Virus record (IMG/VR): IMGVR_UViG_3300045988_125866
DNA from: a virus
Reading direction: 5' to 3' (one strand)
DNA length: 64,000 nt
Below the pieces are notes generated by a model, which saw only the letters and a list, made by a program, of their open reading frames with translations, did no database searches and was not told where the DNA came from. Position numbers and translations under genes: made by a program. Below are positions 1-45,400 of this stretch, piece after piece (the first letter of the stretch is position 1; every line of letters starts with the position of its first letter).

Positions 1-177
1 TCGCTTATCTTACGAGAATACGATATAACCATATATCAAAGATATTAGGTGTATCGCCCCTTGCGCATATTGTAATGATATGTGCGTGCTTTCCACAATT
101 AGGCATAGACAGAGGGTAGCGATGCACCTTCTTTGTGTATCAACCCTACATTTGTCTAACGTCTAAAATTAATTGTA

Positions 178-1259: not shown

Positions 1260-1283
1260 GATAGCTCACGTATTTCTGCTTCA

Positions 1284-1318
1284 CCTCGCTTGGCACAAGC
1301 TGTCGAGCGAGGTTTTTT
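1284..1318 (+). terminator. rho-independent terminator
   Basis: Stem CCTCGCT (1284-1290) / AGCGAGG (1306-1312) followed by TTTTTT. Confidence 0.7.
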
Positions 1319-1437: not shown

Positions 1438-1469
1438 TTTGGCGATAAAAAACCTATTGCGTACCTTTG
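1438..1469 (+). promoter_or_regulatory. Bacteroidota-type promoter (-33 TTTG / -7 TAnnTTTG)
   Basis: TTTG at 1438-1441 and TACCTTTG at 1462-1469 with a 20-nt spacer. Predicted transcription start is near 1476. Confidence 0.5.
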
Positions 1470-1475
1470 TAGCGC

Positions 1476-1860
1476 TTATCAGAAATCGCTCGCTGATAAA
1501 TTGAATATGCTTTATCTTAGTGGCTTTTGCCACTCCATGATATACCCTATCCAATACTCGGAGAGCGACTGAGTAGAGGATAGGGTAAATTCTTTTATCC
1601 TATTCCTCGAAGTCAAGGTGGAAGAGACGGCTAAATACACCACGCACACCAAGACTTTAAATGCAAGTGGGACTCATGGCAAAAGTGCAGGGTTTAATCG
1701 CAGAAGGCACGAGAAGGGTGGATGCTACAATCCGAAAGCTGCGACGCTGAAGCACGTGTAGTTCGTGTAGAGGTCGAATGAAGGGTCAATATACTGGGTC
1801 CATGCCATTCGAGGAATCCCACGCCTACAAGTTTTTTCTTGTGGGTAAGGGGGATTCTCT
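1476..1860 (+). ncRNA. candidate structured noncoding RNA or long structured leader, class unknown
   Basis: No ORF of 60 aa or more in any frame across 1260-1932. Helices: 1476-1482/1493-1499, 1519-1524/1529-1534, 1543-1552/1578-1587 (inner 1555-1559/1571-1575), a 10-bp long-range pair 1602-1611/1808-1817, and 1814-1820/1851-1857. Confidence 0.35.
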
Positions 1861-1932
1861 CAATCAGCTATCTGCAACCTGTTCCATATTCTTTAAATAA
1901 TGTAAGTATAAATTTAAATAAAATATTATATC

Positions 1933-2652
1933 ATGGATAAAGATAAAGAAAATAATATTATTATACCCACGCGCGAGGAGTTTGAGGACTTCTGCTCACT
2001 GAAGCTTGGGTATAATGACAGAGAGTTTACATCAGAATTGTGGAAAACCTGCCAAAAAGTTGGTTGGAGGAAGAAAAACGGCGACCCTCCGAAGAGCTGG
2101 CAGATACTGGTTATATGCTATAATGGCATCGTGCTTCCAAAATTCGGTCGCAAACCATACAAACGAGCATCTGTATCAGAAAAAAGCGGAGAAGAGGAGT
2201 TCCCGGATAACGGCATGCACTATATCGCCTATACTGATGGTAGCTGTGAAAACAAATCATCCAGAAAGGCAGGTGGATCCGCCTATGTCCTGATTAAGGA
2301 TGAAGAGGTTGTTAGAGTCAAGAATCACGGCCAACTCAACACTACGAACAATCGTATGGAGCTGCTTGCCATAATTTCTGCGGTCAATGCCTGCCCGGAC
2401 GGCGCCTTTGTTGATGTTTATACTGATAGCAAATATAGCATACTGACCCTTGAGAAGACGTACAAGCCGGATATAAATGGTGACCTGTGGGAACTATACC
2501 AAAAGCATTCTCGCCACGTTGCTGGAGTTCGCTTGCATTGGGTTAAAGGCCACAACGGAGATCATTATAACGAGATGGCAGACGAAATGGCGTACGGAGC
2601 GTATTGCGAGATTTGTGACAAATATGGAATAAAGAAAAGTAATAGACACTAA
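1933..2652 (+). CDS. RNase HI-domain protein with unknown ~95-aa N-terminal extension
   Basis: The C-terminal ~145 aa show the RNase HI catalytic pattern YTDGS .. NNRMEL .. YTDS .. HNGDHYNEMADE. No domain recognised in the N-terminus. Confidence 0.8.
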   Translation: MDKDKENNIIIPTREEFEDFCSLKLGYNDREFTSELWKTCQKVGWRKKNGDPPKSWQILVICYNGIVLPKFGRKPYKRASVSEKSGEEEFPDNGMHYIAYTDGSCENKSSRKAGGSAYVLIKDEEVVRVKNHGQLNTTNNRMELLAIISAVNACPDGAFVDVYTDSKYSILTLEKTYKPDINGDLWELYQKHSRHVAGVRLHWVKGHNGDHYNEMADEMAYGAYCEICDKYGIKKSNRH

Positions 2653-4961: not shown

Positions 4962-5211
4962 TTGTTTGCATATTGTTTGCATTTTATAATATATTTGGGC
5001 GTATTTACGGGGCTTTTCGGGCTGTTTTTTACATTTTTAGCGTATCAGTTTTAATGTTTATACTATTGAAAATCAGTGAGTTAAGTAGCGCTGTCGCCCA
5101 ATACGTTACAGTTATCATTGCTATCTTTGTAACTTACTGATTATTAATTTATTATGAGTTTTTGAAAATATCTTGTTTGCGTATTGTTTGCAATTTTACT
5201 GCTTGTTTGCA
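4962..5211. repeat. iterated TTGTTTGC(A/G) 9-mers (candidate recombinase or repressor binding sites)
   Basis: Direct copies start at 4962, 4973, 5173, 5184 and 5203. The 20-nt blocks 4962-4981 and 5173-5192 are 19/20 identical. Confidence 0.6.
4991..5040. repeat. inverted-repeat element, copy B (partner 1331-1385)
   Basis: Reads atattt..tatttacggggctttt..acatttttag, the reverse complement of copy A. Immediately preceded by a plus-strand TTTG (4965-4968) / TATATTTG (4990-4997) promoter-like pair. Confidence 0.7.
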
Positions 5212-5663
5212 AGCATATCGAGAAGCTGCTTGATCTGAGCATCTTTGCTTGCAAGTTGTTTGCGCATATCTTTAATCTGTTCGTGGAGTATCCCAATCTC
5301 TTTGTCCTTTAAGGACTCGTCGCCTATAAAGAGATTTGATACTTTAGCAAACGCATTGTCCGGAGTACCCAGTGCTCCTTCGATGGATTTTTCGACATGT
5401 CCACCTATATTTATGTCTCTTCCTACACTATATGTATTGTCGGCATAAACATTTCCTTCTCCACTTTTGAGCCATTTTTGATTTACGCCCATATACTTGC
5501 TTATCTTGAATATGTCTTTGTTCGTTATTCCATACTCGCCCTTTAGCTTCTTTCGAAGATTTCCAGGGTCAATATCAACTTTCTTCGAAAAAGAGTTGGC
5601 ATTGTATCCATTCTCTTCCATAAGATGTTTTATTCGACAAATTAACTCTATATCCTTCTTCAT
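5196..5663 (-). CDS. CI-like repressor (XRE-family HTH plus coiled coil)
   Basis: Start moved to MKKDIELI. HTH segment YNANSFSKKVDIDPGNLRKKLKG. C-terminal heptad region. Divergent from the rightward early operon. Confidence 0.65.
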   Translation of the reverse strand: MKKDIELICRIKHLMEENGYNANSFSKKVDIDPGNLRKKLKGEYGITNKDIFKISKYMGVNQKWLKSGEGNVYADNTYSVGRDINIGGHVEKSIEGALGTPDNAFAKVSNLFIGDESLKDKEIGILHEQIKDMRKQLASKDAQIKQLLDMLANKQ

Positions 5664-5668
5664 AATTA

Positions 5669-5768
5669 CAAATATACAACTAAACACACGATTATTGTAA
5701 AATAACCTTAAAAACACACGATTTCACACGAAATTATTTGGTGTTTTCGAGTGAAAGTAGTACCTTTG
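5669..5768. promoter_or_regulatory. divergent lysogeny-switch promoters with repeated operator-like motif
   Basis: A minus-strand TATATTTG box (5669-5676) lies 5 nt before the repressor ATG. CACACGA repeats start at 5685, 5715 and 5725. Plus-strand TTTG (5737-5740) / TACCTTTG (5761-5768) with a 20-nt spacer. Confidence 0.5.
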
Positions 5769-6213: not shown

Positions 6214-7020
6214 ATGAACGAACTAACCAGGAAAGAAACAATGACCTCGTTAGAAATAGCTGAGGCGACAGGAATGCGTCATGCTGACGTAATGAGAAGC
6301 ATTCGAAACATGGAGGAAGCATGGGTGAAAGTATCAGAACGCAATTTTGCGTTGTCATCATACAAGCAACCTCAGCCGAATGGAGGGTACAAAGATGTTC
6401 CTTGTTATATTCTCAGTAAAACCGAATGCCTGTACGTTGCCACAAAGTTCAATGACGAGGCACGAGCAAAGCTTGTGTTGAGGTGGGAAGAGCTTGAATC
6501 GAAAGAGGTGAGCAAGTACCAGGTTCCGCAATCTTTCTCTGAGGCACTCATGTTGGCGGCTAAACAACAGGAGCAAATAGAGAGACAACAGAAACAGCTC
6601 GAAGCGAGTTCAAAGGAAATCGTTGAACTTAACGGTGCGATAGCAGAGATGCAGCCAAAGGTGACATACGTTGATATCATCCTCTCAAGCAAGGAAACAG
6701 TCACAACGACACAGATTGCGCAGGATTATGGTCAGTCTGCAAAGTCATTCAATATCCTGCTTAGGAATTTTGGGCTACAGCGTAAGGTTGGAGGACAGTG
6801 GATATTGTACGCAAAATATCTCCCTTACGGATATGTTCAGTCGGACACTATATCAATAATGCACAAGAATGGTTCTGCCGGTTCGGTTATGCACACAAAA
6901 TGGACACAGAAGGGCCGCTTATTCCTTTACGAGGAATTAAAGAAACACAAAATATTCCCTCTTGTCGAGGGTGGAAAGGAGGCTCAAAATGACACCAAAA
7001 AAGAAGACCGTAATCAATAA
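6214..7020 (+). CDS. Rha-family regulator fused to KilAC antirepressor-type domain
   Basis: The N-terminus TSLEIAEATGMRHADVMRSIRNM is Rha-like. The C-terminus TTTQIAQDYGQSAKSFNILLRNFGLQRKVGGQWILY is KilAC-like. Confidence 0.7.
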   Translation: MNELTRKETMTSLEIAEATGMRHADVMRSIRNMEEAWVKVSERNFALSSYKQPQPNGGYKDVPCYILSKTECLYVATKFNDEARAKLVLRWEELESKEVSKYQVPQSFSEALMLAAKQQEQIERQQKQLEASSKEIVELNGAIAEMQPKVTYVDIILSSKETVTTTQIAQDYGQSAKSFNILLRNFGLQRKVGGQWILYAKYLPYGYVQSDTISIMHKNGSAGSVMHTKWTQKGRLFLYEELKKHKIFPLVEGGKEAQNDTKKEDRNQ

Positions 7021-7344: not shown

Positions 7345-7417
7345 GGACACATAGCTCAGTGGATAGAGCATTTCCCTCCTAAGGAAAGGGTCGCAGGTTC
7401 GATCCCTGCTGTGTCCG
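7345..7417 (+). tRNA. tRNA-Arg(CCT): tRNA-Arg (anticodon CCT)
   Basis: Manual cloverleaf: acceptor GGACACA/TGTGTCC, D stem GCTC/GAGC, anticodon stem TTTCC/GGAAA with loop CTCCTAA, T arm GCAGG-TTCGATC-CCTGC. No encoded CCA. Confidence 0.85.
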
Positions 7418-7772
7418 CAATGTTTGCTTCGTTGATTTTTAGGTGCAAAGCTAACGTCCTTTAAGCTTATAAAGTAGGTAGCTCGGGCAACTACAATCTT
7501 ACATCTTTTTAAAAACAATAGCAAACAATAGCTCTTTGGCTTAATGGTTGACAACATAGTATGCGTGGAAAAGAAGTAGCCGGATAGCGCAATGAGCGCC
7601 GTGACCTGGTGAAAGGACGCACGACATACGAAAATCCAGCTAATTTCTGCATTAAGTAGTTTGGCGAACCGCATCGGAAAGAAGAATTGTCGATGTAGGC
7701 ACATACGAAAATAATGCAGTCTGGTGATTATATTATAATGAGTTCACATCACTCATAGTTTATATATTCAAA

Positions 7773-7951: not shown

Positions 7952-7954
7952 ACA

Positions 7955-8027
7955 GCGGAATAGTAGCAGTTGGTAGCTCGTCAGGCTCATATCCTGAAGG
8001 TCGGTGGTTCGAGTCCACCTTCCGCAA
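7955..8027 (+). tRNA. tRNA-Met(CAT): tRNA with CAT anticodon (Met or Ile2), atypical
   Basis: Anticodon arm TCAGG-CTCATAT-CCTGA and T arm GGTGG-TTCGAGT-CCACC. The acceptor GCGGAA/TTCCGC has only 6 clean pairs, and the D stem has a U10:C25 mismatch. Confidence 0.5.
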
Positions 8028-8111
8028 CGAAATTTATTGCACATGTTAATTTTGCTCGTTAATGTCTCCAGGCGTGGCGTTTTTTTAAATGAATATTAGT
8101 TTTAATGGCTC

Positions 8112-20934: not shown

Positions 20935-21744
20935 ATGGAAGAATCTTTAGCTAAAAAAATAGATGCTGCGATAAAATTGCTTCAATCAACATGCAAAAAT
21001 GAAGTCGTTGAGCTTTGCTATTCGGGGGGAAAAGACTCTGATGTGATACTTATGCTCGCAAAATTGGCTGGTATTAAATATCGTGCTATATATAGATGTA
21101 CTACCATAGACCCTCCTGGAACCATTGCGCATTGCATCGAAAATAATGTTGAAATAATTAGACCTTCAAAATCTTTTTTGAATCTTATAAGAGAAAAAGG
21201 ATTTCCAACCCGAAGGGTAAGATTTTGTTGCGAGAAACTGAAAGAATACAAAATTTTAGATAGGGCAATACAAGGCATAAGAAGATGTGAAAGTTATAAA
21301 AGAGCAAAAAATTACAAAGAGCCTACAATATGCAGAATATATGGTTCTAAGAAAAATTGCGTTGAAGTTATATTGCCAATATTAAATTTTTCAGATAAAG
21401 ATATTGAAAACTTTATAATTGAATACAAGATTAAATTGCATCCATTATATTACAATGCCGATGGAAGCTTAAATATAAAAAAAAGATTAGGTTGTATGGG
21501 TTGCCCATTAGCTTCTGATAAAGGATTGTCAGATTTCAAAAGCTATCCTTTGCTTGTTAAAGCATGGATAAGAAATGGGTTAATTTGGTGGAATAACCAT
21601 CCTAAAGCAGCTTGTCATAAGAAATACGAATCTATATACGAACTTTTCGTGTCTAACGTATTTTTTAAATCGTTGGCAGAAACAAAACTTGCTATAGATG
21701 GTGGTTTATTCGGAGAAAAAAATAGACTGCAAGAAATTTCTTGA
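20935..21744 (+). CDS. PAPS-reductase-like PP-loop protein
   Basis: PP-loop SGGKDS in ELCYSGGKDSDVIL, plus a Cys-rich C-terminal half (RFCCEKLKE, LGCMGCPLA). Confidence 0.7.
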   Translation: MEESLAKKIDAAIKLLQSTCKNEVVELCYSGGKDSDVILMLAKLAGIKYRAIYRCTTIDPPGTIAHCIENNVEIIRPSKSFLNLIREKGFPTRRVRFCCEKLKEYKILDRAIQGIRRCESYKRAKNYKEPTICRIYGSKKNCVEVILPILNFSDKDIENFIIEYKIKLHPLYYNADGSLNIKKRLGCMGCPLASDKGLSDFKSYPLLVKAWIRNGLIWWNNHPKAACHKKYESIYELFVSNVFFKSLAETKLAIDGGLFGEKNRLQEIS

Positions 21745-35511: not shown

Positions 35512-38500
35512 TTAGTACTGTCTGTTAATTATTCTCGCAAGATATGGCTGTGTAAAACCTTCGAGTGTGTAAGACTTGTCGGGGTTATACATCAACAGAA
35601 ATTCATAAGAGTCTCCTGCCGCCATATCAAAATCAGCCCAATAGCCACCGTTCCAGTGTGTAATAAGCGGGAGGCCTTTAGTGTTCCATCGCGCCACATT
35701 TGCGCCGTCTTTTGTTGTGCATCTTCCTCTCATGGCGATGGACTCGCTGCCAATATCCATCACGATTGTAAGCCTTACGCAGAACTTGTCATCGACATGC
35801 TGCGAACCGAACAGTATCTGCTTGATCGTCCCGAGAGTGGGCAGCGCAAGCGCAAGATAATTTTTCGAGCTGACTATCAGGGTAAGCGAATCTATTTTCT
35901 GTACTTCGTTATAAGTAGTTCCTCTAAACAAACCTGTATTATCAAGGAATACATCCTTGGTAGTCATATTTATCATCGTGTACTTATATCCGTATACTCC
36001 ACCGTTGACCGATACGTCACCAATACCGCGCAGCGCATAGTTCTGCACGCCGTTCTTCGCTTCCGCAAAGTAGCACACGTTGCTATGGTAGCCGTCAGTT
36101 GTATCGATGGCATCTACCCTCATCTTCGCACTGAGGTAAGTTCCAGGGCCAGGAACAGCGAGGGTCTGGTCCGTGTCGATGAATATAGCACTCCGCCCCT
36201 CTGCCTTGATCAGCTGAAAACGAGTATCTGTCAACATCATGCTGTCTTCCTTGAATAAAGCACCACTCGACAGACCTTCGCCCGTTATCTCGAACCGTCC
36301 GAACTTCTTTCGTGTACCACTGTCCTCATCTTCGTAATATCTCACACCGAAAGCACCCTTGTCGGCATACATGTAGCCATCCTTAGAGACACGGAACGGA
36401 GAGTCGGCGGCTGTCGACGAACCTACCCAGAGAGGATATTGCTTTCCGTCTTCATCCTTCGCCTCATCTATATCGTAGTTGCCGAAGTGAGCGAGCGTAT
36501 TTTGGTTATTACCATCTTTCGCCCAAACATGGTGAACATTGATGGTGTCAGCATCTATCAGGTCGGCATTAAGCTTGCCGTCCTGAAACATTGCAGTGGT
36601 AGTGCCGTTATTGCTTACCTTCACCTTGTCGCCATACAGCTCCACACCATCTGCTGTAATATTTAAGCCCGCAGCCTTGGCTGTCGCCTTGTCGATGAGG
36701 TCAGTCTTCTTCTCTGTGTACTCTGTCATCAGAGCACCTTCCTCCAACTTCGGCTTAGCCACCCAAGCCTCACAGCCGTCAACAGCTCGCAGCAGTACCG
36801 ACTGAGGTAACACAGTTTCGCCATCACCCGTATAAAGGTCTATACGCCAGTGTACCCAGTATCGCTTCCATTCGCTCGTCAGTGTGAAGTTCGATGCTCC
36901 GTCGGCCACATTCTCCGTCACCTTTCCCTGGCTGTTCTCTGCGTAGATATTCACGTGAACGCTGTCCTTATACAGGTGTGCTCTCAGAGTTCCGCTTCCC
37001 TTCGCAAGGAACGAGAATACATAATTCTTCCTCAGCTCGAAGTTAAGAATCCTTCCGTTCTCTCCGTTGAATCTCAGGAAGTCACACATATTATTGTTAC
37101 TGCTGTCTGCCTTTCCGTGAACTACGGCATACGCACCCTCGTAGGTGTCCTGTGCCACCTCATTGGCCGTATAAAGGTTGCTCAACTGTCCGCTCGCAAC
37201 AAGCGTCCTCGTGTCGTCGAGCATATTTCCGCCAAGGTAGTCGTAGTCCGTTTCCGCAGGAGTCCAGCCTGTGTACTCGCTTCCTTCCTCCAGCATTGGC
37301 ATACATATCCATCCGTTACCAGAGGCAGTATAACCAAATGTTCCGTCCACGGTTATGCCATTGTAGACAAAGATATTCACCTCGATAAACTCTGCGTCGC
37401 CCGAGTTGAAAGTGTAGTTCACCTGCCTCCATTGGTTCACCTCGTTCTCCTTCGTTATCCACTGCATGTTACCCGAGGTGGCAGTAATTTGGTCCCCTCT
37501 ATTGCCATTCAGCGCAGCCATCTTGAACACCTCCGAATGAATCTGTAAGTCCTTCGTGTCGCACTTTATCCATGCGGAAAATGTATAATCGGTGTTCTTC
37601 TTCACAGCGATGCCGTTGATGGTCAGTCCCCAGAAAAGTCCCTTGTACTGAGGCGTTCCGTTACCCGTCACCGAGAAGCGGATGGCATTATGGCCGTTCA
37701 CGCCCTGTGTTATCGTAGGCTGGAAGAGGCCGTCCGAATAATATATATCACCCTTCCTTGTCAATGACGTATCTCGCAGTAGGTTGTGCCGTCCTTGCTG
37801 GTTCTGAGTCACGCTGAGAGTAATCTCCTTTGCTGTCTGCTTGATAGTAGATGTGTAGGCGTTGAGAACGGTAGGATTACTTCCTTTCAGGTCTTTCTCC
37901 AGTGCCTCAAATTTCGACTGGTACTGCTTGGCCGTAGCCTTTACACTGCCCATGTACTTTGTCACATTCACAGAGAATGGAACCTGTGTACTGTAGCTCT
38001 TCCCTCCGAGAGAGAATGTGATTGTGACAAATCCCTCGCTCACCGACACCTTGTCTCCGCTCGCCAGAGTGATAGTGTTCACAGAATTGAGCTTCACCTT
38101 TATGTATCCTGTAGCCAAGCTTGCCGCAGCCGTACAGTTCTGCATATAGCTCACCCTTACGTCTGAGCACTCGTTAGTAACATTCTCGCCACCTCTCATC
38201 ACCATTACTCGTCCTTCTGCCGTGGTGTCCGACACGATGCCGTCATCGTTAGTGTCGAGCACGATGGGCTGTACGAGAAGTATGCTCACTCCGTCCTCTC
38301 CGTCATTTCCGTTCACACCAGGAGTACCTTGTTCTCCTTTCTCGCCCTGTGGTCCCTGTGCGCCCGTTTCGCCCTGCGCACCTGTTTCTCCTTTAGGTCC
38401 CTGTGGCCCTTCGTCACCTCTATCTCCCTTTTCGCCTTTGTCTCCTTTGCCTCCCTTTTCTCCCGACAACACCTTCTGCCAGTCGCTGTTTGCGTCCGAA

Positions 38501-41500
38501 GGCTCTTGACTTGTTCCGTTCTCGTTGATACAAGTCCACAGGGCGTTGTTATGGTTCACTTGGTCGTAGTAGTCATAGCTTCCTGCCTTCCACTCACCTC
38601 TGTAGTTCACCATGTGCATAGCATCCCCAGTCGAAGATACCCACTCAAAGATACCGCTATTAAGCCTTATCTTGTCAGGCGAAAGCACGAATACCTCCTT
38701 GCCATCGTGTGTATATCTGTCTACACCCTTGAAGCCTACGATGCGAGGTGTGTTCTCGCCAGTACTCTCCAGTATCAGCACACCTTTTCTGCTATCATCG
38801 TCAACAATTTGTCCTCCAACAAAAACAGCTCTATGTCCGTCAAGCACAATAGTGTCTCCTGCTTCAGGAATACCACCTATCTCTGCCGTTGCAAACTCCT
38901 CAGTCATTGAGTCTAACGACAAAGAATGTTTGCCGATTACTATCCATGAGAACATCTGTCCTCCATACAGTTCGTTGCCATATCCGTCATATATCTTCTC
39001 GTTCACACTCGATACGCCGTGCTCAGGGATTGTTCGCCAGTAGCTCTTGTTGCTTGCGTTCGTGGTTCCAGTAGCCAGCGTTCCGATGGTCTTGCACCTC
39101 ACTTGGTCTCCCTCTCTCCACAGGTTTTGTGTAGCCGTAGTTCCGTCATCCGCCAAGAGATAACAGAGCCAGCCTTTGCATTTATCTACAGAGGTCTCTA
39201 TCCATTCACTGCTCTCGCTTTCCCATGTTACAGGCACGACCTTCACTATCTTGCTTCCTGCGCCCGAGAGATACACATTACCGCCTGCATACGACAGTTT
39301 TCTTACCTCCAGTTGATTAAAGATAGCCTTTCCCCAAATGGTGAGGTTGGTGATAAAGCCGTTGTATTTCCCGTTTTCCTTCTTGACAGCGAAACCTTGC
39401 TCTGCTTCATTGTCGTAGTCGATGGACTGCAACGACTCCAAGATGGCCCGTCCTGCCTCGTCTATCAACGCTCCGCCCTTACCAAAGTAAGCACCTCCGT
39501 TCAACTTCACTAAAGCCTCGCTTACCAGTCCTTTGATGAAGGTAATCACGCCTTGTGCGGTGTCATCCTTTAGCTTCGACAGAAAGTGTTTTGAAGCTTC
39601 ATTGATAGTCGAGTCGGTTATCTGTTTCGATGTCTCGCTACTTACCTTTCCGTTTCCAGACTCAAGGGATGAAATCTGCTGCTTTATCTTAGCCATCGTT
39701 CCGACTTCTACATCGTTCCTCAGAGTTACTTCATAGGTTGGTATGCCTCCTTCGTTTTCTCTTATAACGAGCTGGTCGATGGTCACCTTGCCTCCTATGT
39801 GTAAGTCGCCATCGTCAAACTCCATGATGTCGCCGGCCTTCAACGTGTCGTGAAGGCTCTTGATGGTTCCGGTTTTATCTTCAGTCGCTTGGTCGTTTTG
39901 TCTCGCCATAAACACTTCGTCTACCTTGGGCTGGTACACATACCTTGTGTAGTCGTTCTTGTCTATGTAGGCAATGGCGTATTTCAGAAGCTTTAGTGAT
40001 GCTGCGTTCACATAAGAGTCGGGCAGGGTGATACCTGTCAGTACAAAGTGATCTCCTTTTCTGATAGGATAGTCTTTGTATGGGAACCACAGCTCCAAGG
40101 CATCGTCCTTTACTCTCTGTATGGTCAACCTCCATCTGCCGTTCTCTTTTACCGATGATGCTACCTTAAAGGTTCTTCCTCCACACATGCCATCCTTCAT
40201 GGCGATAGAGAAATCACTGTCCTTCAGGTCGTTGATATCGAAGTCGATAGACGGATTCAGGTAGATGTCAACATTGTTTACGGTTTGTCCGTCTTCAAAC
40301 CTTCCGTTGTCATTTGGTGCAACGCCCTCGTCAATCTCATCAACACGCACACCACCGATAACCATTTCTTCGATTGTAGGGTATATCTCTACGATACCGT
40401 TGGTCTTGTCATCGTTATCAAAATATTGCGATGCGGAACGAAGACCAATCTGCTGTATGTTCACAGAGTCAATATAGGGCCTGTATGGATTCGTCGAAAA
40501 GATATGTTCCTTGCCCGTTGGGTTTACATATTCCTTATCAGCCTTACTCAGCGAGTTGTAGTAGTCGTTAAGTGAAACATGAGGGAATCCTGGCAACATC
40601 AGCCTGTTGATAGACATGTTGTTGGGAAGATTCTGCGCATACTCCTTCATTGACGATGGCACTGCCTTAGTGTTCAGGCCGCCAGTTATATACAACTTTC
40701 TGTTTCCTGCGTTTACTTGTGCGATAAACCTGTCAAGATTTTCTTTTGACGGCTCGTCTCCGTTGTCTTCCATGTTGTTCTTCACTTTCGAGTATAACAT
40801 TACGGCCTGCCCGCTGCTCAAAGCTGTCACAACACAGGTGATGACCGTCTGAAAGTCAAACGTCACCTTCAGGACGTATCCGTATGTCTGTTCTTTACCA
40901 GTCCCGTCATTAGGTACGAAAACTCTTGGGATGGTGAAATAATTGTCAATGTACTCCATGTCGATATACACTGACAGATAACTTGTTGCAGTGTTCACCT
41001 CTGTGATGTTACAGAAGTACTTTGTGCCAAGGTCTGCGTAGTAGTGAGATGGGAGGTTCTTTTCTGAACCGTAAGCTCTTAGCCTTGTCACGATTTGCTG
41101 TTCTGAGTCTGCATTTTGGATCAACTCACTCAAACCTTTTCCAAGCCCGTACTTGAAGATATTTTTTGCGAGCACGCCTGCCGTTCCAACGTACACATTC
41201 CGACCTCTTACGATGAAGTTTACGTCCCACTCGCTATTTACTAAGGCCAAAGCTTCCCAACAGGTCTTTCCGTCAACGGTGATAGACTTGGATTCGATAT
41301 CGTTCTTAGGTGTTCCTCCTCCATAAACATTCGTCCAGTCCGCATCCGAACAGCCTCTCTGCAAAGACCTTTTCTTGTTGCGTGAGTACACTTTCCACAC
41401 ACCCTTGCCGATCTGTTCGTCAAGGTTGGCTTGTATTCTGTCGAGAAGGTCGTCAAGTGTCTCTACGTAGAACGAAAACTTCGGCAGGGCAGTATAATGC

Positions 41501-41841
41501 AGTTCGTTGTCGTTCAGAACCACGTCGAGAAACTCCGATCTCGACAACTCGTCCTGCAACGCATTGAACTTTACGCTGTCATACACGAATCCCTCTCCGT
41601 ATGTGTTTAGCCTTGCTTTTTTGTCCTTTCCCGGCTCATAGTTCAACTCGAAGCGCTCTCCTCTGTATATGATGTAGTCGCCTATCTTAAAGTTGATTGG
41701 AGCGTTGTTTTTGAAGTCAATGGTAAGGAAGCAGTCTCCCATCCATTTGTCTGAGTACTGCAATCCGTGAACGACAACCTCGTCATCGTTCACGTCTGTA
41801 AGCTTTGTTCCGTCCTTATGATATATGTTCCACCTACTCAT
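35512..41841 (-). CDS. giant tail fibre / tail-tip host-specificity protein
   Basis: 2109-aa ORF directly after the Dit-position gene. Contains a collagen-like G-X-Y tract and several beta-rich modules. Confidence 0.7.
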   Translation of the reverse strand: MSRWNIYHKDGTKLTDVNDDEVVVHGLQYSDKWMGDCFLTIDFKNNAPINFKIGDYIIYRGERFELNYEPGKDKKARLNTYGEGFVYDSVKFNALQDELSRSEFLDVVLNDNELHYTALPKFSFYVETLDDLLDRIQANLDEQIGKGVWKVYSRNKKRSLQRGCSDADWTNVYGGGTPKNDIESKSITVDGKTCWEALALVNSEWDVNFIVRGRNVYVGTAGVLAKNIFKYGLGKGLSELIQNADSEQQIVTRLRAYGSEKNLPSHYYADLGTKYFCNITEVNTATSYLSVYIDMEYIDNYFTIPRVFVPNDGTGKEQTYGYVLKVTFDFQTVITCVVTALSSGQAVMLYSKVKNNMEDNGDEPSKENLDRFIAQVNAGNRKLYITGGLNTKAVPSSMKEYAQNLPNNMSINRLMLPGFPHVSLNDYYNSLSKADKEYVNPTGKEHIFSTNPYRPYIDSVNIQQIGLRSASQYFDNDDKTNGIVEIYPTIEEMVIGGVRVDEIDEGVAPNDNGRFEDGQTVNNVDIYLNPSIDFDINDLKDSDFSIAMKDGMCGGRTFKVASSVKENGRWRLTIQRVKDDALELWFPYKDYPIRKGDHFVLTGITLPDSYVNAASLKLLKYAIAYIDKNDYTRYVYQPKVDEVFMARQNDQATEDKTGTIKSLHDTLKAGDIMEFDDGDLHIGGKVTIDQLVIRENEGGIPTYEVTLRNDVEVGTMAKIKQQISSLESGNGKVSSETSKQITDSTINEASKHFLSKLKDDTAQGVITFIKGLVSEALVKLNGGAYFGKGGALIDEAGRAILESLQSIDYDNEAEQGFAVKKENGKYNGFITNLTIWGKAIFNQLEVRKLSYAGGNVYLSGAGSKIVKVVPVTWESESSEWIETSVDKCKGWLCYLLADDGTTATQNLWREGDQVRCKTIGTLATGTTNASNKSYWRTIPEHGVSSVNEKIYDGYGNELYGGQMFSWIVIGKHSLSLDSMTEEFATAEIGGIPEAGDTIVLDGHRAVFVGGQIVDDDSRKGVLILESTGENTPRIVGFKGVDRYTHDGKEVFVLSPDKIRLNSGIFEWVSSTGDAMHMVNYRGEWKAGSYDYYDQVNHNNALWTCINENGTSQEPSDANSDWQKVLSGEKGGKGDKGEKGDRGDEGPQGPKGETGAQGETGAQGPQGEKGEQGTPGVNGNDGEDGVSILLVQPIVLDTNDDGIVSDTTAEGRVMVMRGGENVTNECSDVRVSYMQNCTAAASLATGYIKVKLNSVNTITLASGDKVSVSEGFVTITFSLGGKSYSTQVPFSVNVTKYMGSVKATAKQYQSKFEALEKDLKGSNPTVLNAYTSTIKQTAKEITLSVTQNQQGRHNLLRDTSLTRKGDIYYSDGLFQPTITQGVNGHNAIRFSVTGNGTPQYKGLFWGLTINGIAVKKNTDYTFSAWIKCDTKDLQIHSEVFKMAALNGNRGDQITATSGNMQWITKENEVNQWRQVNYTFNSGDAEFIEVNIFVYNGITVDGTFGYTASGNGWICMPMLEEGSEYTGWTPAETDYDYLGGNMLDDTRTLVASGQLSNLYTANEVAQDTYEGAYAVVHGKADSSNNNMCDFLRFNGENGRILNFELRKNYVFSFLAKGSGTLRAHLYKDSVHVNIYAENSQGKVTENVADGASNFTLTSEWKRYWVHWRIDLYTGDGETVLPQSVLLRAVDGCEAWVAKPKLEEGALMTEYTEKKTDLIDKATAKAAGLNITADGVELYGDKVKVSNNGTTTAMFQDGKLNADLIDADTINVHHVWAKDGNNQNTLAHFGNYDIDEAKDEDGKQYPLWVGSSTAADSPFRVSKDGYMYADKGAFGVRYYEDEDSGTRKKFGRFEITGEGLSSGALFKEDSMMLTDTRFQLIKAEGRSAIFIDTDQTLAVPGPGTYLSAKMRVDAIDTTDGYHSNVCYFAEAKNGVQNYALRGIGDVSVNGGVYGYKYTMINMTTKDVFLDNTGLFRGTTYNEVQKIDSLTLIVSSKNYLALALPTLGTIKQILFGSQHVDDKFCVRLTIVMDIGSESIAMRGRCTTKDGANVARWNTKGLPLITHWNGGYWADFDMAAGDSYEFLLMYNPDKSYTLEGFTQPYLARIINRQY
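38291..38463 (-). repeat. collagen-like G-X-Y repeat tract inside the tail fibre
   Basis: Encodes GEKGGKGDKGEKGDRGDEGPQGPKGETGAQGETGAQGPQGEKGEQGTPGVNGNDGEDG. Confidence 0.85.
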
Positions 41842-42469: not shown

Positions 42470-45400
42470 TTATCTTACCTTGATAGACTTAACTCCGTTG
42501 ATAACCATGTTGAAATTACTGCTATACTCCTCGAATACGCGCTCTATTCGCTCTGCTGCTTCAGCGTTTCTTAGGGTGTTGGCAGATATGAAGTTCAACT
42601 GTGTTAGTTGCGACTTGGCTATCTCGTTCGATTCCGACATACATTTCACTTGCTCCTCTCTTATTACTGACACATCAAGACGTATGCTATTGAGGTAACT
42701 GGCAATCAGGTCTCCTGTCTCTTCCGTTATCCCTTTTACAGAATTTGTAAGAGAAGAACTGCTGTTGTCGCTCCATCCGTAGTACCGCTTGATATAATCT
42801 CTTGATGCCTCTATCCGCTTTGTCACGTCAGCAAGGTCTTTGCCTATCTCATCCATCTCTGTGTCGGTGTACTCGGACATTACTTTTCCCGTTGCTGTGT
42901 CAAGCTTCTTTTCCGTACCGCCATTAGGGTCGCCATACTTCTTGGTCTTCTCTATCAGAGCTTTTATCTTCTCTCCATAAAGGTTCTCTATCATGGATTT
43001 CAAGATAACATTCCTTAGATTTTCCTCGAAATGGTCCACAAGGTTGTCAGATGTGTTCGACATCGTGGCCATTGCGTCACCCCAGGCGGAAACGAGGTCG
43101 GAATACTTGTTGCCGGTAAGCTTCTCAGTCAGAGACTCTATCATATCCTCCGACTTCTCGCCGTACTCTATCAGTTTGTCAAGATAGGTCCTTGAGTCCT
43201 CATCAAGGTTGGCCCAAAGCTCCGCGTAGTCCTTCTTTATCTGCTGAAGCACCTTGTAGTCTATATCCAAGATATCAGTCATGCTGTCAAACTTCACGCC
43301 GTATCTCTTGGATATTTCGGGGGCAGCTTCTTTCCACCCGCGCTTCTCCCAGTCTCTCACCTTGATAGAGTGACTTCCTGCCGAAGCACCTGAGTTGAAG
43401 TTCTTCATGGCGATCACCTTCGTCTGCTTTATCTCAGCTTCCAGCATCTCCTGGGCTTCCTTTGAGGCGTTTGCAGCCTCAGTACCCCAGTGAATGTTCA
43501 TGTACTCCGACTTCTTGGAGATGAGAGAATCCCAGATCGAAGAAAGCGTTTCGTACTTCTGCTTCGCTTTGTTGTACTCTGAATAATCTGCTCCAAAAGC
43601 CCCTATCAGAGAACTTGCAACGCTTAACCCCGCACCAACAGCAGCTCCATAAGGAGCAAGGTTACCAAGACCCAAAGCATTCAGTCCACCAGACACCTGC
43701 GATGCCGCACCAAGTGCATTGCTTGCGCCTCCCGTTATCTGCCCGAGAATGGAATCTTCTTCACCCATTGCCTTAAACAAACCTATCACTGGATCAAGAG
43801 CGCTTTCCAATGCCTTAAACTTTCCTGCAAGCGCATTGATGGCATTCGACGAGTCTGCATACTTTCCTTTCTGTTTGCTCGCAAGCTCATTTTTGCTATA
43901 CCCGGCAGCACTCCATTCTATGCCCATCTTCTTGGCTTGTTCTGCGGTAGGCACATACTTTTTGCCATTCATGTACTGCGCACCGAGGTCACCTTTCAAG
44001 TATCCTCCTATAGCGTTTCCTTGATTTACGGCCCCGAAGATGTATGGCAGTGGGTTTCTGTCAATATCCTCTTTTCTTAGCTTGTCGAGGGCATCCCTCA
44101 GCTGTTTCACTACTTCTACCGACAATCCCGTCGTTCTCGAAAAATCGTCTATCTTCTCGATCATAGAGTTGATTGTTGCCGAAGATACCCTGTCAAGATC
44201 ATCGAAGATGGCAACCCAGTCCGACTCCTGCTTGAACTGCTCGAACTGAAGCTTCGCAACGTTCTCGTTATGAGTCTTTGTGGCTCCTGCCTTGGCTCTG
44301 TCTCTCATCTGTGGGTCTTCGATGCCCTTGATGAGTTCAAGCTGTCTCTCGTATTTTCGGTTCTCGTCCTCAATCTGCTGTGAGATGGTGGCATTCTTCT
44401 CAATCAGGTTAGCCATCAAATCGATGGTCTCCTTCTTGATCTTGTTGTTCTCATCTTCCAGCTTCTTGCGGATATCATAAACACGGGTCTCTTCACCATA
44501 CTTATCCTTGACATTTTCAAGACTCATATCCTTAACCTCATCCGTAGTCAAGTTAAGACCGGACTGAATGTTATCGTGCCTTACCGCAATATCGAGCTGC
44601 TCCTCCAGGAACTTTTTGTAAGTGTCAAACTGAACAATTCCACCGAAAGCTATATTCTGAGCACCTTTCTTGTTTCCGGTCAGCTCGTATATTTTCTTAT
44701 ACGTCTCATACTGCTCAGATATAGTATCAAGCTGCTTATTGAGTACATTCAGCTCATCTCTCCGCTGGGCTTCGAGAAGTTTTCGGTTTTCAGTCTGAAT
44801 ACCTGCCTTCTCGTTTGCGGCGTAGTCCAATCTGTCCTTCGTTGACGCAGGGAGAGTATTCAAGAGCTCCTTGATGGAAGTCTCGTAGTTGGTATAGTCA
44901 GAGATAGGGAACCTCTTCTTGTCACCAAAGATAGCCTCAAACTCTCCGTCATTAGCAAGCTGACCAAGAGCACCTTCTCCATAAAGCTCCTTAAACTTCT
45001 TGATTTCAGCATACATCTTCTTGTATAAGTCGATGCGCTTCCTCAAATCTTCAAGAGCCTTATCTGTCTGCGCGCCTTTTGATCTACGGCCACCGGTTTT
45101 CTTGTTTTTCTTCTTGTCGTCACCAGTAAACCATTCGCCCCAGTTATCATGATAAGCCTGCATCTTAAGTTCGTATTCCTTCTGCTTCTGTGTAAACTCA
45201 TCGAGAGAAAGATTGCCCAGCGCAAGCATCTTCTTTCTGGTGTTGAGTTCCTTTTTGGCAGCAGTAATGTCCGACTCAGCGTTGCTCTTTGCTTTATCGT
45301 AGTCGTCTCCGGCATCCTTTCCCCAACTCTTGACGTACTTGTTCTTCTCATGATAGTCGTAACCACTACCCTTGAGATTCTTTTCGAGCTGCTGGGTGAG

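What the first reader, a model, noticed from the sequence alone, without database searches (positions are those of the whole stretch)
1438..1932. Promoter-driven, densely structured ~385-nt RNA candidate upstream of a phage RNase HI gene
The 670-bp stretch 1260-1932 has no ORF of 60 aa or more in any frame. It contains a full-consensus Bacteroidota promoter: TTTG at 1438, a 20-nt spacer, then TACCTTTG at 1462. Many nested helices follow:
- 1476-1482/1493-1499
- 1519-1524/1529-1534
- a 10+5 bp hairpin 1543-1587
- a perfect 10-bp long-range pairing attcctcgaa (1602-1611) / ttcgaggaat (1808-1817) closing a ~200-nt domain
- a terminal hairpin 1814-1857 with a T6 loop

There are also mutually exclusive pairings: ggataggg (1578-1585) can pair either with 1544-1552 or with 1599-1608, and gaat (1814-1817) is shared by two helices. 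That is switch-like behaviour. I could not match it to RNase P, tmRNA, 6S, SRP or common riboswitch consensus sequences from memory. It may be a new large leader or riboregulator of the RNase H-SPFH operon, or an independent phage ncRNA.
Basis: partly seen in the sequence, partly recalled or inferred. Interest (0 to 1): 0.65.

Follow-up and report, generated by a model that had tools for sequence, protein, structure and literature searches.

The report
New structured RNA in Prevotella phages
The gap in front of a phage RNase H gene encodes a real, strongly conserved, roughly 400-base folded RNA with its own promoter that matches no described RNA family; it probably acts as a regulatory switch at the end of prophages of the human gut bacterium Prevotella.

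Summary
Window 1438-1469 carries a full Bacteroidota promoter (4 in the window, 0.72 expected by chance). Bases 1470-1885 have no conserved ORF and are more conserved (98-99% nt) than the adjacent RNase H gene (92-95%).

Homologues from more than 60 Prevotella/Segatella phage contigs show two modules that recombine independently.
- **D1 (1470-1598):** three hairpins. The third looks like an intrinsic terminator (hairpin plus T-run). Its apical loop pairs with the loop of hairpin 1. This kissing pair exists in at least 15 sequence versions that always stay complementary.
- **D2 (1608-1885):** about 10 helices, including two pseudoknots, with 15/21 and 23/46 pairs showing compensatory changes.

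No Rfam 15 family matches.

The RNA is not tied to RNase H. One relative places it before an antirepressor gene, one before no gene, and one has D1 alone.

Best reading: a promoter-proximal attenuator/small-RNA module with a self-recognition loop code. It works like IsrK, P4 CI or P1 c4, and gates read-through into a large pseudoknotted domain of unknown function and into variable cargo genes. The existence and fold are shown. The mechanism is inferred.

The parts
1283..1313 (+). Intrinsic terminator of the upstream 86-aa gene. It marks the start of an independent transcription unit.
   Evidence: Terminator scan: 13-bp stem followed by TTTTTATT.
1438..1469 (+). Bacteroidota-type promoter: -33 TTTG (1438-1441), 20-nt spacer, -7 TACCTTTG (1462-1469). 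The predicted start lies at about 1473-1478.
   Evidence: 4 matches in the window against 0.72 expected. Conserved with the same spacing in relatives whose upstream DNA is otherwise unrelated. The start site is inferred, not mapped.
1476..1499 (+). D1 hairpin P1 (1476-1482/1493-1499) with loop L1 (1483-1492).
   Evidence: Predicted in 14 divergent relatives. Compensatory changes on the class A alignment. GTCAA/TTGAC becomes GTTAA/TTAAC in L143 and L152.
1486..1491 (+). L1 half of the kissing-loop pairing (UCGCUC). It pairs with 1563-1568.
   Evidence: Class A: 6 pairs, 100% paired, 5 of 6 compensatory. Classes B and C: 91.7% paired against 24-55% for slid partners. Cognate duplexes average -11.4 kcal/mol against -4.6 for non-cognate, permutation p<=1e-5. 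L153 against L137 shows a clean double change.
1519..1534 (+). D1 hairpin P2 (1519-1524/1529-1534).
   Evidence: Its sequence differs among classes (AGUGGC/GCCACU, AGGGGC/GCCCC, AAGGC/GCCUU).
1544..1586 (+). D1 hairpin P3: outer stem 1544-1552/1578-1586, inner stem 1556-1561/1569-1574, apical loop L3.
   Evidence: The outer stem is nearly invariant within class A but has a different sequence in each class.
1563..1568 (+). L3 half of the kissing-loop pairing (GAGCGA).
   Evidence: Same as for 1486-1491.
1587..1598 (+). T-rich tract after P3 (AAAUUCUUUUAU). Together with P3 it looks like an intrinsic terminator.
   Evidence: A T-run follows P3 in every class (sequences). The simple terminator scanner does not call it, because P3 has internal loops and a long apical loop. 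Termination itself is not shown.
1599..1606 (+). Segment D (CCUAUUCC), a near copy of the P3 5' strand. It can pair with the P3 3' strand (1578-1585) as an alternative to P3.
   Evidence: Cognate duplexes of -10 to -17 kcal/mol in classes A and B; weaker (-7 to -8) in L081, L100, L147 and L200. One compensatory change, L023 ACUCGGGG/CCCUGAGU against L025 ACUUGGGG/CCCAAGU. Partial support.
1612..1670 (+). D2 pseudoknot 1: helix H1 (1612-1614/1653-1655 and 1617-1620/1647-1650), plus pairing of its loop (1640-1643) with 1667-1670.
   Evidence: 16 representatives of three D2 types: 97.2% of cells paired against 73.9% shuffled. H1a and the pseudoknot pairing are 100% paired, and the pseudoknot has 3 of 4 pairs compensatory. 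H1b is 81% paired there because the type II rows sit one column out of register; it is 94% paired on the type I alignment.
1685..1743 (+). D2 pseudoknot 2: Pe (1685-1688/1707-1710) crossing Pb (1699-1703/1739-1743), with hairpin Pc (1720-1723/1730-1733) and the invariant purine strands AGAAGG and GAAAG.
   Evidence: Pe, Pb and Pc are each 100% paired, with 3/4, 3/5 and 3/4 pairs compensatory.
1752..1768 (+). D2 hairpin Pd (1752-1756/1764-1768).
   Evidence: Micro-covariation among near-identical phages (CACG/CGUG, UACG/CGUA, CAAG/UUUG). The column register differs between clades.
1815..1856 (+). D2 terminal hairpin: outer stem 1815-1820/1851-1856, inner stem 1825-1831/1838-1844. It contains the conserved GGGUAAGGGG (1842-1851).
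   Evidence: 96% and 100% paired, with compensatory changes. AAUCC/GGAUU becomes UUCCC/GGGAA (L100) or AAGCC/GGCUU (L025).
1873..1885 (+). Conserved single-stranded tail UGCAACCUGUUCC, followed by an A/U-rich spacer up to the RNase H start codon.
   Evidence: Alignments. No partner was found for it.
1933..2652 (+). Usual downstream gene: an RNase HI with an extra N-terminal three-helix domain. It is a neighbour, not an obligatory partner.
   Evidence: PF00075 E=1e-24. AF2 model with pLDDT 88 matching E. coli RNase HI. The RNA occurs without this gene in L160 and L200.

Best explanation
A constitutive-looking Bacteroidota promoter (1438-1469) drives a two-part phage RNA.

**D1 (about 1475-1598)** is a promoter-proximal attenuator that doubles as a small RNA. 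It has three hairpins. The last, P3 plus a U-tract, stops most transcription by default. The apical loop of P3 makes 6-9 Watson-Crick pairs with the loop of P1.

This kissing pair is the fastest-changing paired element of D1, yet it always stays complementary. That suggests it serves as a specificity code. In cis it pre-organises or stabilises the terminator fold. In trans it could let the short terminated D1 RNA recognise only nascent or read-through transcripts of its own phage type.

Read-through transcripts can refold, with the P3 3' strand pairing to segment D (1599-1606). They continue into **D2 (1608-1885)**, a roughly 275-nt double-pseudoknot domain, and then into variable cargo genes. 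The cargo is RNase HI plus SPFH here and an antirepressor elsewhere.

The logic resembles IsrK of Gifsy-1, CI RNA of P4, c4 of P1/P7 and CA RNA of N15. In those systems a leader-derived RNA acts on its own transcript to gate a prophage operon.

**Shown:** the promoter motif, the fold, the strand, the covariation, the two-module structure and the contexts.
**Inferred:** termination at P3, action in trans, the role of the loops as a code, and any function of D2.
For: - **Promoter.** Rare in the window and conserved at fixed spacing. Homology with many relatives starts exactly at the -7 box.
- **Selection.** The non-coding stretch is 98-99% identical where the RNase H gene is 92-95%. In L021 the figures are 85% against 75%.
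- **Not coding.** The short ORFs are frameshifted or stopped in relatives.
- **D1 fold.** P1, P2 and P3 are predicted in 14 divergent sequences.
- **Kissing loops.**
  - Class A: 100% paired, 5/6 pairs compensatory, while 8/9 pairs of the P3 outer stem never vary.
  - Classes B and C: 91.7% paired, against 24-55% when the partners are slid.
  - Cognate loops are far more stable than non-cognate ones, p<=1e-5.
  - At least 15 versions are known, including a double compensatory change between the near-identical L137 and L153.
- **Terminator-like end.** A T-run follows P3 in every class.
- **Separable modules.** D1 occurs without D2 in L090. D1 classes and D2 types are recombined.
- **D2 fold.** 97.2% paired with 15/21 pairs compensatory, and 93.6% paired with 23/46 compensatory.
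- **Strand.** G.U pairs are frequent; on the other strand they would be A.C mismatches.
- **Context.** The cargo varies. L160 has the RNA in front of a Bro-N/ANT antirepressor.
- **Analogy.** The IsrK, P4 CI and seqA logic is described in PMC4825925.
Against: - No transcript, 5' end or 3' end data are available.
- The simple terminator scanner does not call P3.
- In the window itself three A's separate the stem from the T-run, so termination there may be weak.
- No trans target of L1 or L3 exists elsewhere in the window beyond chance. There is no second D1 copy either.
- The alternative P3-D pairing is weak in four classes.
- A 275-nt double-pseudoknot domain is far more elaborate than a leader needs to be.
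- In L200 the RNA is followed by no co-oriented gene. That fits an independent RNA better than a leader.
- Covariation cannot tell intramolecular from intermolecular loop pairing (preprint 10.1101/2024.12.08.627333).
Confidence: 0.45

Rival explanations
1. The whole 400-nt transcript, or processed D2, is an independent stable ncRNA acting in trans. It would be comparable to other large 'ornate' prophage-associated RNAs. It might bind a protein or assemble with copies of itself, with the L1-L3 pairs as intra- or intermolecular bridges. The downstream genes would be incidental neighbours.
For: - It has its own promoter and is preceded by a terminator.
- It is more conserved than the neighbouring gene.
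- D2 has about 10 helices, two pseudoknots and invariant purine-rich strands.
- L200 keeps an intact D1+D2, with a 9-bp loop pairing, and no co-oriented gene downstream.
- In GOLLD and ROOL, covarying kissing loops turned out to be intermolecular.
Against: - A conserved terminator-like hairpin sits between the promoter and D2 in every class.
- D1 exists without D2, and the two modules are shuffled.
- In more than 55 loci a gene starts 50-80 nt after D2 on the same strand.
- There is no match to GOLLD, ROOL, OLE or raiA.
Confidence: 0.27
2. D2 is a ligand- or factor-sensing leader, like a riboswitch or T-box. It would control expression of whatever gene follows, with D1 as an additional attenuator.
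For: - It always lies in the 5' UTR position.
- Different genes are placed under it: RNase H and an antirepressor.
- The pseudoknotted core has invariant unpaired nucleotides.
Against: - No terminator or start-codon-sequestering element was seen at the 3' end of D2. An A/U-rich spacer of 50-80 nt intervenes.
- L200 has no regulated gene.
- It resembles no known aptamer.
- It is larger than almost all riboswitch aptamers.
Confidence: 0.12
3. This is a ColE1-like replication origin. The transcript would be a pre-primer that forms an R-loop through its G-rich 3' part (GGGUAAGGGGG) and is cut by the adjacent phage RNase HI. The D1 hairpins would act as a copy-control target.
For: - An RNase HI gene lies directly downstream in most loci.
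- The 5' end has three stem-loops with kissing loops.
- A conserved G-rich segment is followed by an A/T-rich stretch.
- No replication initiator was recognised among 10 early-region proteins.
Against: - The complementary loops are on the same strand, not on an antisense transcript.
- The elaborate covarying pseudoknots of D2 are not needed for a primer.
- The RNA occurs without RNase H.
- It sits at the prophage end, next to integrase and att, rather than in a replication module.
- No composition signal of an origin was seen.
Confidence: 0.07
4. This is not a functional RNA. It is a decayed protein gene, or structure that arose by chance.
For: The folding z-score of the single sequence is modest, and the minus strand also folds well.
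Against: - The ORFs are not conserved.
- Compensatory changes occur in more than 35 base pairs.
- Conservation is higher than in the adjacent gene.
- The 266-aa ORF that replaces D2 in L090 is an insertion or replacement with no detectable similarity to D2 (nhmmer; sequence read).
Confidence: 0.01

Closest known systems
IsrK sRNA / isrK-orf45-anrP leader of Salmonella prophage Gifsy-1 (PMC4825925)
   Same: - A prophage promoter makes a short RNA that ends at an intrinsic terminator.
- Read-through gives the mRNA for downstream genes, including an antirepressor.
- Alternative structures involve the sRNA part and a downstream segment.
- The short form acts on the long form of the same strand.
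- One relative here (L160) also has an antirepressor downstream.
   Different: - There is no sequence or structure similarity: no hit to any Rfam family, IsrK (held by Rfam, from memory) included.
- IsrK has no loop-loop kissing pair and no 275-nt pseudoknotted domain.
- The host phylum and the way translation is initiated differ.
- Action in trans is only inferred here.
P4 CI RNA with seqA/seqB/seqC, P1/P7 c4 RNA and N15 CA RNA (phage immunity RNAs; P4 as summarised in PMC4825925, the others from memory)
   Same: - Complementary segments lie on the same strand of a leader.
- The complementary segments differ between related phages and change in step, which defines specificity.
- The outcome is premature termination, or blocked expression, of an operon that often encodes an antirepressor.
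   Different: - Those RNAs are cut out of the leader by RNase P and pair with sites outside themselves. Here both partners lie inside the same 125-nt unit, in hairpin loops.
- There is no homology.
- No immunity phenotype has been tested.
ColE1 RNA I/RNA II and R1 CopA/CopT antisense control (from memory)
   Same: - The 5' region has three stem-loops.
- Recognition is by loop-loop kissing.
- Loop sequence acts as a specificity (incompatibility) determinant.
- For ColE1 there is a link with RNase H.
   Different: - Those pairs are transcribed from opposite strands, so their complementarity is automatic. Here it is on one strand and must be selected.
- There is no evidence of an origin.
Large ornate prophage-associated RNAs GOLLD and ROOL (preprint 10.1101/2024.12.08.627333)
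   Same: - They are large, multi-pseudoknot RNAs often found in prophages, with unknown function.
- They have covarying kissing loops, which may bridge separate molecules.
   Different: - This RNA is not a member (no Rfam hit).
- It is about 400 nt, against roughly 580-800 nt.
- It has a terminator-like hairpin inside it and a gene directly downstream.

Membership tests
Any Rfam 15 family (including RNase P, tmRNA, 6S, SRP, riboswitches, group I/II introns, IsrK, C4, GOLLD, ROOL, HEARO, raiA) | Match to the family covariance model at or near the gathering score. | tested here: not met
   At gathering thresholds the window gives only two tRNAs. With E<=10 on 1200-2000, only chance-level hits far below threshold appear. 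Seven divergent homologous loci give nothing at E<=1.
Bacteroidota sigma-ABfr promoter-driven transcription unit | -33 TTTG and -7 TAnnTTTG separated by 19-21 nt. | tested here: met
   1438-1469. 4 matches in the window against 0.72 expected. Conserved in relatives. The transcription start is not mapped.
Intrinsic (Rho-independent) terminator / attenuator | A stable G+C-rich-based hairpin immediately followed by a U-tract. | tested here: inconclusive
   The P3 hairpin plus a T-run is present in all classes by direct reading. The consensus scanner does not call it, because of internal loops and a long apical loop. In the window AAA separates the stem from the T-run.
Intrinsic (Rho-independent) terminator / attenuator | Transcripts actually end there, and read-through is regulated. 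| not testable with these tools
   Needs Term-seq, Northern blots or in vitro transcription.
IsrK / P4 CI / P1 c4 type self-targeting leader RNA | Complementary segments on the same strand of a prophage leader that covary between related phages. | tested here: met
   L1/L3. At least 15 variants.
IsrK / P4 CI / P1 c4 type self-targeting leader RNA | [quoted passage not shown] | not testable with these tools
   No expression data. No extra trans target was found in the window.
IsrK / P4 CI / P1 c4 type self-targeting leader RNA | Sequence or structure homology to those RNAs. | tested here: not met
   No Rfam hit. The claim is analogy only.
ColE1-type primer RNA / origin | An antisense regulator RNA transcribed from the opposite strand of the 5' stem-loops. 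| tested here: inconclusive
   No Bacteroidota promoter match on the minus strand of this region. The complementarity is within one strand. Transcription was not measured.
ColE1-type primer RNA / origin | Obligatory link with RNase H and with replication functions. | tested here: not met
   The RNA occurs without RNase H in L160 and L200. It lies next to integrase at the prophage end.
Riboswitch | A conserved aptamer followed by an expression platform (terminator or start-site sequestration). | tested here: not met
   No terminator or sequestering helix lies at the 3' end of D2. L200 has no regulated gene. Ligand binding was not tested.
Type III toxin-antitoxin (ToxI-like RNA antitoxin) | Tandem repeats of a short RNA unit upstream of the toxin gene. 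| tested here: not met
   No repeat is visible in the sequence or the folds. PADLOC gives no hit for the RNase H. No dedicated tandem-repeat search was run.
Protein-coding gene or pseudogene | A reading frame conserved in relatives. | tested here: not met
   Frameshifts, stops and lost start codons in relatives.

The most novel reading that the evidence does not exclude
Two things would be new if true.

1. The hypervariable but always complementary L1/L3 loops could be an RNA-only self/non-self code. It would give related Prevotella prophages private regulatory channels, that is, RNA-based immunity or compatibility types in Bacteroidota phages.
2. D2 could be a new class of large functional RNA: a sensor, a ribozyme or a self-assembling particle. 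It has a double-pseudoknot core and is widespread in human gut viromes.
Probability: 0.3. Interest if true: 0.85.

Novelty: new variant of a known kind. Interest (0 to 1): 0.68.

Why it matters
Prevotella/Segatella are among the most abundant human gut bacteria, and almost nothing is known about how their prophages are regulated.

This RNA family occurs in many gut-metagenome phage contigs. The associated RNase H family alone has 377 protein clusters, some with hundreds to thousands of members. The RNA is under stronger constraint than the gene beside it.

If D1 works as proposed, it would be the first RNA-based, type-specific attenuator/immunity device described in Bacteroidota phages.

D2 adds an uncharacterised multi-pseudoknot RNA of about 275 nt to the short list of large bacterial RNAs of unknown function. 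Such RNAs have repeatedly led to new biochemistry.

The compensatory-mutation series gives ready-made designs for experiments.

Tried and rejected
- **Rfam.** Gathering thresholds, then permissive E-values on the region, then seven divergent loci. All gave nothing.
- **GenBank phage collection.** Sensitive blastn found no match.
- **tRNA/tmRNA scan.** Only two tRNAs, far away.
- **Covariance model of class A D1.** It finds all class A copies, but not the other classes at useful E-values. It finds no second copy in the window.
- **MAFFT alignment across D1 classes.** It is structurally wrong. I therefore used class-wise alignments and a cognate against non-cognate duplex test.
- **Trans targets of L1 and L3 in the window.** Only 8-9-mers at chance level.
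Not conserved; rejected.
- **A long-range helix 1672-1676/1795-1799.** Only 78% paired; left as doubtful.
- **A GACUUU/AGAGGUC pairing resembling group I intron R/S elements.** Rejected, because L023 compensates the competing helix H1 instead.
- **Resemblance to the P4 helix of RNase P RNA.** Rejected for the same reason.
- **Short ORFs in D2.** Not conserved.
- **PADLOC and PHROGs on neighbouring genes.** No defence system is recognised around the RNA.
- **The first IMG/VR pattern scan.** It was mis-specified by one N and returned only chance hits. It was corrected.
- **Fold search on the RNase H model.** It only confirms the RNase HI fold. The N-terminal domain stays unassigned.
- **Literature searches.** No description of this RNA was found.
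Full report

The region 1260-1932 has no ORF of 60 aa or more; the longest is 48 aa. The upstream 86-aa gene ends with a clear intrinsic terminator at 1283-1313.

TTTG at 1438-1441 and TACCTTTG at 1462-1469 are separated by 20 nt. This is the Bacteroidota -33/-7 promoter consensus as I know it from the Bacteroides literature. The full pattern occurs 4 times in the 64-kb window, against 0.72 expected by chance. One of the other three sits in front of the early operon, opposite a CI-like repressor.

The single-sequence folding energy is only moderately unusual: z = -3.2 on the + strand and -2.5 on the - strand. The case therefore had to be made by comparison.

**2. Relatives**

- The RNase H protein (1933-2652; PF00075) brought in 25 IMG/VR loci. 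All of them also carry the upstream non-coding region.
- In L007-L024 homology begins at about window 1460, at the -7 box. So the RNA plus RNase H unit is a mosaic module.
- Genome hits name the hosts: a Prevotella sp. MAG and Candidatus Segatella violae.
- A protein search gave 377 clusters at E<=1e-20.
- Contexts of nine diverse members and a second IMG/VR scan gave 53 distinct RNA sequences.
- The RNA is 98-99% identical where the RNase H gene is 92-95% identical. In L021 the figures are 85% against 75%.
- The two short ORFs inside D2 are frameshifted, stopped or lack a start codon in relatives. The region is non-coding and under purifying selection.

**3. Module D1 (about 1470-1598)**

RNAfold finds the same three hairpins in 14 divergent representatives. 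Window coordinates come:
- P1: 1476-1482/1493-1499.
- P2: 1519-1524/1529-1534.
- P3: outer stem 1544-1552/1578-1586, inner stem 1556-1561/1569-1574.

The key finding is that the loop of P1 (UCGCUC, 1486-1491) is complementary to the apical loop of P3 (GAGCGA, 1563-1568). This pair changes from phage to phage while staying complementary.

| Locus | L1 / L3 |
|---|---|
| window | UCGCUC / GAGCGA |
| L021 | UUACGC / GCGUAA |
| L082 | GUCGCAC / GUGCGAC |
| L085 | AUCGCAC / GUGCGAU |
| L160 | CUGCAUU / AAUGCAG |
| L086 | GUUGCGA / UCGCAAC |
| L081, L094 | GUUACGA / UCGUAAC |
| L023, L025, L098 | GUUACGG / CCGUAAC |
| L153 | GUUAUGG / CCAUAAC |
| L127 | GUAGCGG / CCGCUAC |
| L096 | UGGAGG / CCUCCA |
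| L100 | AGGAGG / CCUCCU |
| L090 | AAUGGGUAC / GUGCCCAUU |
| L200 | AUAUUCAGA / UCUGAAUAU |

These sequences were read. Wobble variants also occur in L010, L024 and L129.

Quantitative support:
- On the class A alignment the six kissing pairs are 100% paired and five show changes on both sides. Eight of the nine P3 outer-stem pairs never vary.
- On classes B and C, 91.7% of cells pair, against 24-55% when the partner is slid. This includes two rows that pair in a different register.
- Cognate loop duplexes average -11.4 kcal/mol, against -4.6 for non-cognate combinations. Permutation gives p<=1e-5.

The single-site changes are U.G wobbles on the + strand; they would be A.C mismatches on the other strand. 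This points to RNA pairing on the + strand rather than to a DNA-level inverted repeat.

**4. Terminator-like end of D1 and an alternative pairing**

In every class P3 is followed by a T-run. Examples are GGGAC-UUUUUUUG in L085, GGGGGUUC-UUUUUU in L023 and GGGGAC-UUUCUUUUG in L100. In the window it is GGGU-AAAUUCUUUUAU. By direct reading this is an intrinsic-terminator arrangement.

The simple scanner does not call it, because P3 has internal loops and an apical loop longer than 8 nt. I therefore treat termination as inferred.

Just after the T-run lies a near copy of the P3 5' strand (segment D, 1599-1606). It can pair with the P3 3' strand. It is strong in classes A and B and weaker in four others. 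It shows one compensatory change, between L023 and L025.

**5. Module D2 (1608-1885)**

Sixteen representatives of three D2 types align well over the 5' half. For the structure I derived, 97.2% of cells pair, against 73.9% in shuffles and 28-40% when slid. Fifteen of 21 pairs change on both sides.

The structure contains two pseudoknots:
- **Pseudoknot 1.** Helix H1 (1612-1614/1653-1655 and 1617-1620/1647-1650). Its loop segment 1640-1643 pairs with 1667-1670.
- **Pseudoknot 2.** Pe (1685-1688/1707-1710) crosses Pb (1699-1703/1739-1743). Hairpin Pc (1720-1723/1730-1733) lies in between.

Over the whole of D2 in 13 type I sequences, 93.6% of cells pair, against 83.3% shuffled, and 23 of 46 pairs are compensatory. 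This adds hairpin Pd (1752-1756/1764-1768) and the terminal hairpin (1815-1820/1851-1856 and 1825-1831/1838-1844). The terminal hairpin holds the conserved GGGUAAGGGG.

A long-range helix 1672-1676/1795-1799 is doubtful at 78% paired. Many pairs are G.U on the + strand.

**6. Two modules, several contexts**

D1 classes and D2 types are recombined:

| Locus | D1 class | D2 type |
|---|---|---|
| L023 | B | I |
| L098 | B | II |
| L086 | C | II |
| L094 | C | I |

- **L090: D1 without D2.** D1 is intact, but D2 is replaced by a 266-aa ORF of unknown function. The ORF starts right after the T-run.
- **L160: an antirepressor downstream.** A DNA-pattern scan of IMG/VR found this locus, where D1+D2 precedes a Bro-N/ANT antirepressor instead of RNase H.
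- **L200: no downstream gene.** The metagenome scan found 33 true copies. All but one precede RNase H. In L200, D1+D2 is followed only by a convergent integrase, and there is no RNase H within 11.8 kb.
- **Position in the prophage.** Cargo downstream of RNase H varies: SPFH plus a small membrane protein here, and a BrxP-like PAPS reductase in L082. The cassette is always next to an integrase, and many viral contigs end 600-1100 nt upstream of RNase H. It therefore lies at the prophage end.

**7. What it is not**

- No Rfam 15 family matches the window region or seven divergent relatives.
- There is no match in GenBank phages.
- There is no second D1 in the window and no trans target of the loops.
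- PADLOC gives no hit for the RNase H or SPFH genes.
- The RNase H itself is a normal RNase HI fold with an extra N-terminal three-helix domain of unknown function.
- Literature searches found no description of this RNA.

**8. How it most likely works**

*Shown:* a conserved promoter motif; a + strand RNA fold made of two modules; a hypervariable but always complementary loop pair, one partner of which is the apical loop of a terminator-like hairpin; variable downstream genes.

*Inferred:*
- D1 terminates most transcripts and so yields a small RNA of about 120 nt.
- The kissing pair stabilises or nucleates the terminator fold in cis. It could also let the short RNA recognise long or nascent transcripts of its own type in trans.
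- Read-through transcripts refold (P3 3' strand with segment D) and carry D2 and the cargo genes.

The contrast between an invariant P3 stem and a fast-changing loop pair within class A is what one expects of a specificity determinant. It is not what one expects of an ordinary tertiary contact.

The closest functional precedents are IsrK of Gifsy-1 and the P4 CI/seqA/seqC system, both discussed in PMC4825925. P1/P7 c4 and N15 CA are further precedents, cited from memory. All of them gate prophage operons that include antirepressors, which fits L160. These are analogies of mechanism, not family membership.

The role of D2 is open. Its complexity and the L200 context keep the 'independent ornate RNA' reading alive. 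The cryo-EM work on GOLLD and ROOL shows that covarying kissing loops can be intermolecular. A ColE1-like primer/origin reading is attractive because of the RNase H and the G-rich 3' segment. However, it conflicts with the same-strand complementarity, with the copies that lack RNase H, and with the position of the cassette in the prophage.

**9. Verdict**

This is a genuine, strongly constrained, previously undescribed structured RNA family of Prevotella/Segatella temperate phages. Existence, strand, boundaries and most of the secondary structure are well supported. The mechanism is a reasoned inference that experiments can test directly, using the natural compensatory variants.

Noticed in passing
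window 1-177, continuing upstream in L004:1915-2245: The antirepressor-like gene at 178-984 has its own leader. After a terminator comes a second -7 box, TATCTTTG (L004 about 1988). A short terminator-like hairpin (GCUCUGCUG-CAAAA-CAGCGGGGC plus U7) lies about 50 nt downstream, followed by roughly 170 nt more before the ATG. This phage therefore seems to use the arrangement 'promoter, early terminator, leader, gene' more than once.
   Followed up: partly
L090:1599-2399: A 266-aa ORF with no Pfam, PHROG or PADLOC match takes the place of D2, directly after the D1 T-run. It is followed by a longer (274-aa) RNase H. Only a short G-rich remnant (GUAAGGGGAGG) remains before the RNase H.
   Followed up: partly
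D1 linker in L023, L025, L098 and L090; loops in L096 and L100: Several D1 classes carry CCUCCUUUC, which is identical to the anti-Shine-Dalgarno end of 16S rRNA, in the linker between P1 and P2. In another class the kissing pair itself is AGGAGG/CCUCCU. This is curious in a phylum that largely does not use SD pairing.
   Followed up: no
window 1933-2220 (RNase H residues 1-95): The RNase HI has a confidently predicted N-terminal three-helix domain (helices 14-24, 30-42, 56-71) with conserved PTREEF and Trp residues. It has no Pfam match. Its function and any link to the RNA are unknown.
   Followed up: partly
L096:2015-2500 (also L097): Here D1 (class with UGGAGG/CCUCCA loops) is followed by about 330 nt that do not align with any D2 type. 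This may be a fourth D2 type or a different RNA.
   Followed up: no
L096, L098, L100 and L090, the 100-400 nt upstream of the promoter: Direct repeats occur here, for example CCAUAUCCACACCAUAUC and AGAUACG/CAGAUACAC. In L086 and L090 there is also a stretch that looks like a tRNA 3' end, between the integrase and the RNA promoter. These are probably attP arm sites and core, which would put the RNA promoter right at the prophage boundary.
   Followed up: no
window 5196-5768: A CI-like HTH repressor (5196-5717, minus strand) faces a full-consensus promoter at 5737-5768 (+) that heads the early operon. A second antirepressor (Ant/Rha type) lies at 6214-7020.
   Followed up: partly
window 7345-7418 and 7954-8028: Two phage-borne tRNA genes, tRNA-Arg(CCU) and tRNA-Met(CAU), lie in the early region.
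   Followed up: no
window 35512-41841 and 42470-49366 (minus strand): Two very large ORFs of 2109 and 2298 aa. They were not examined.
   Followed up: no
L082:4005-5039 and window 20935-21744: PAPS-reductase-like genes: a BrxP-like hit for the L082 cargo gene and a PHROG 'PAPS reductase' hit in the window. This suggests that DNA-modification or defence-type cargo travels with these phages.
   Followed up: no
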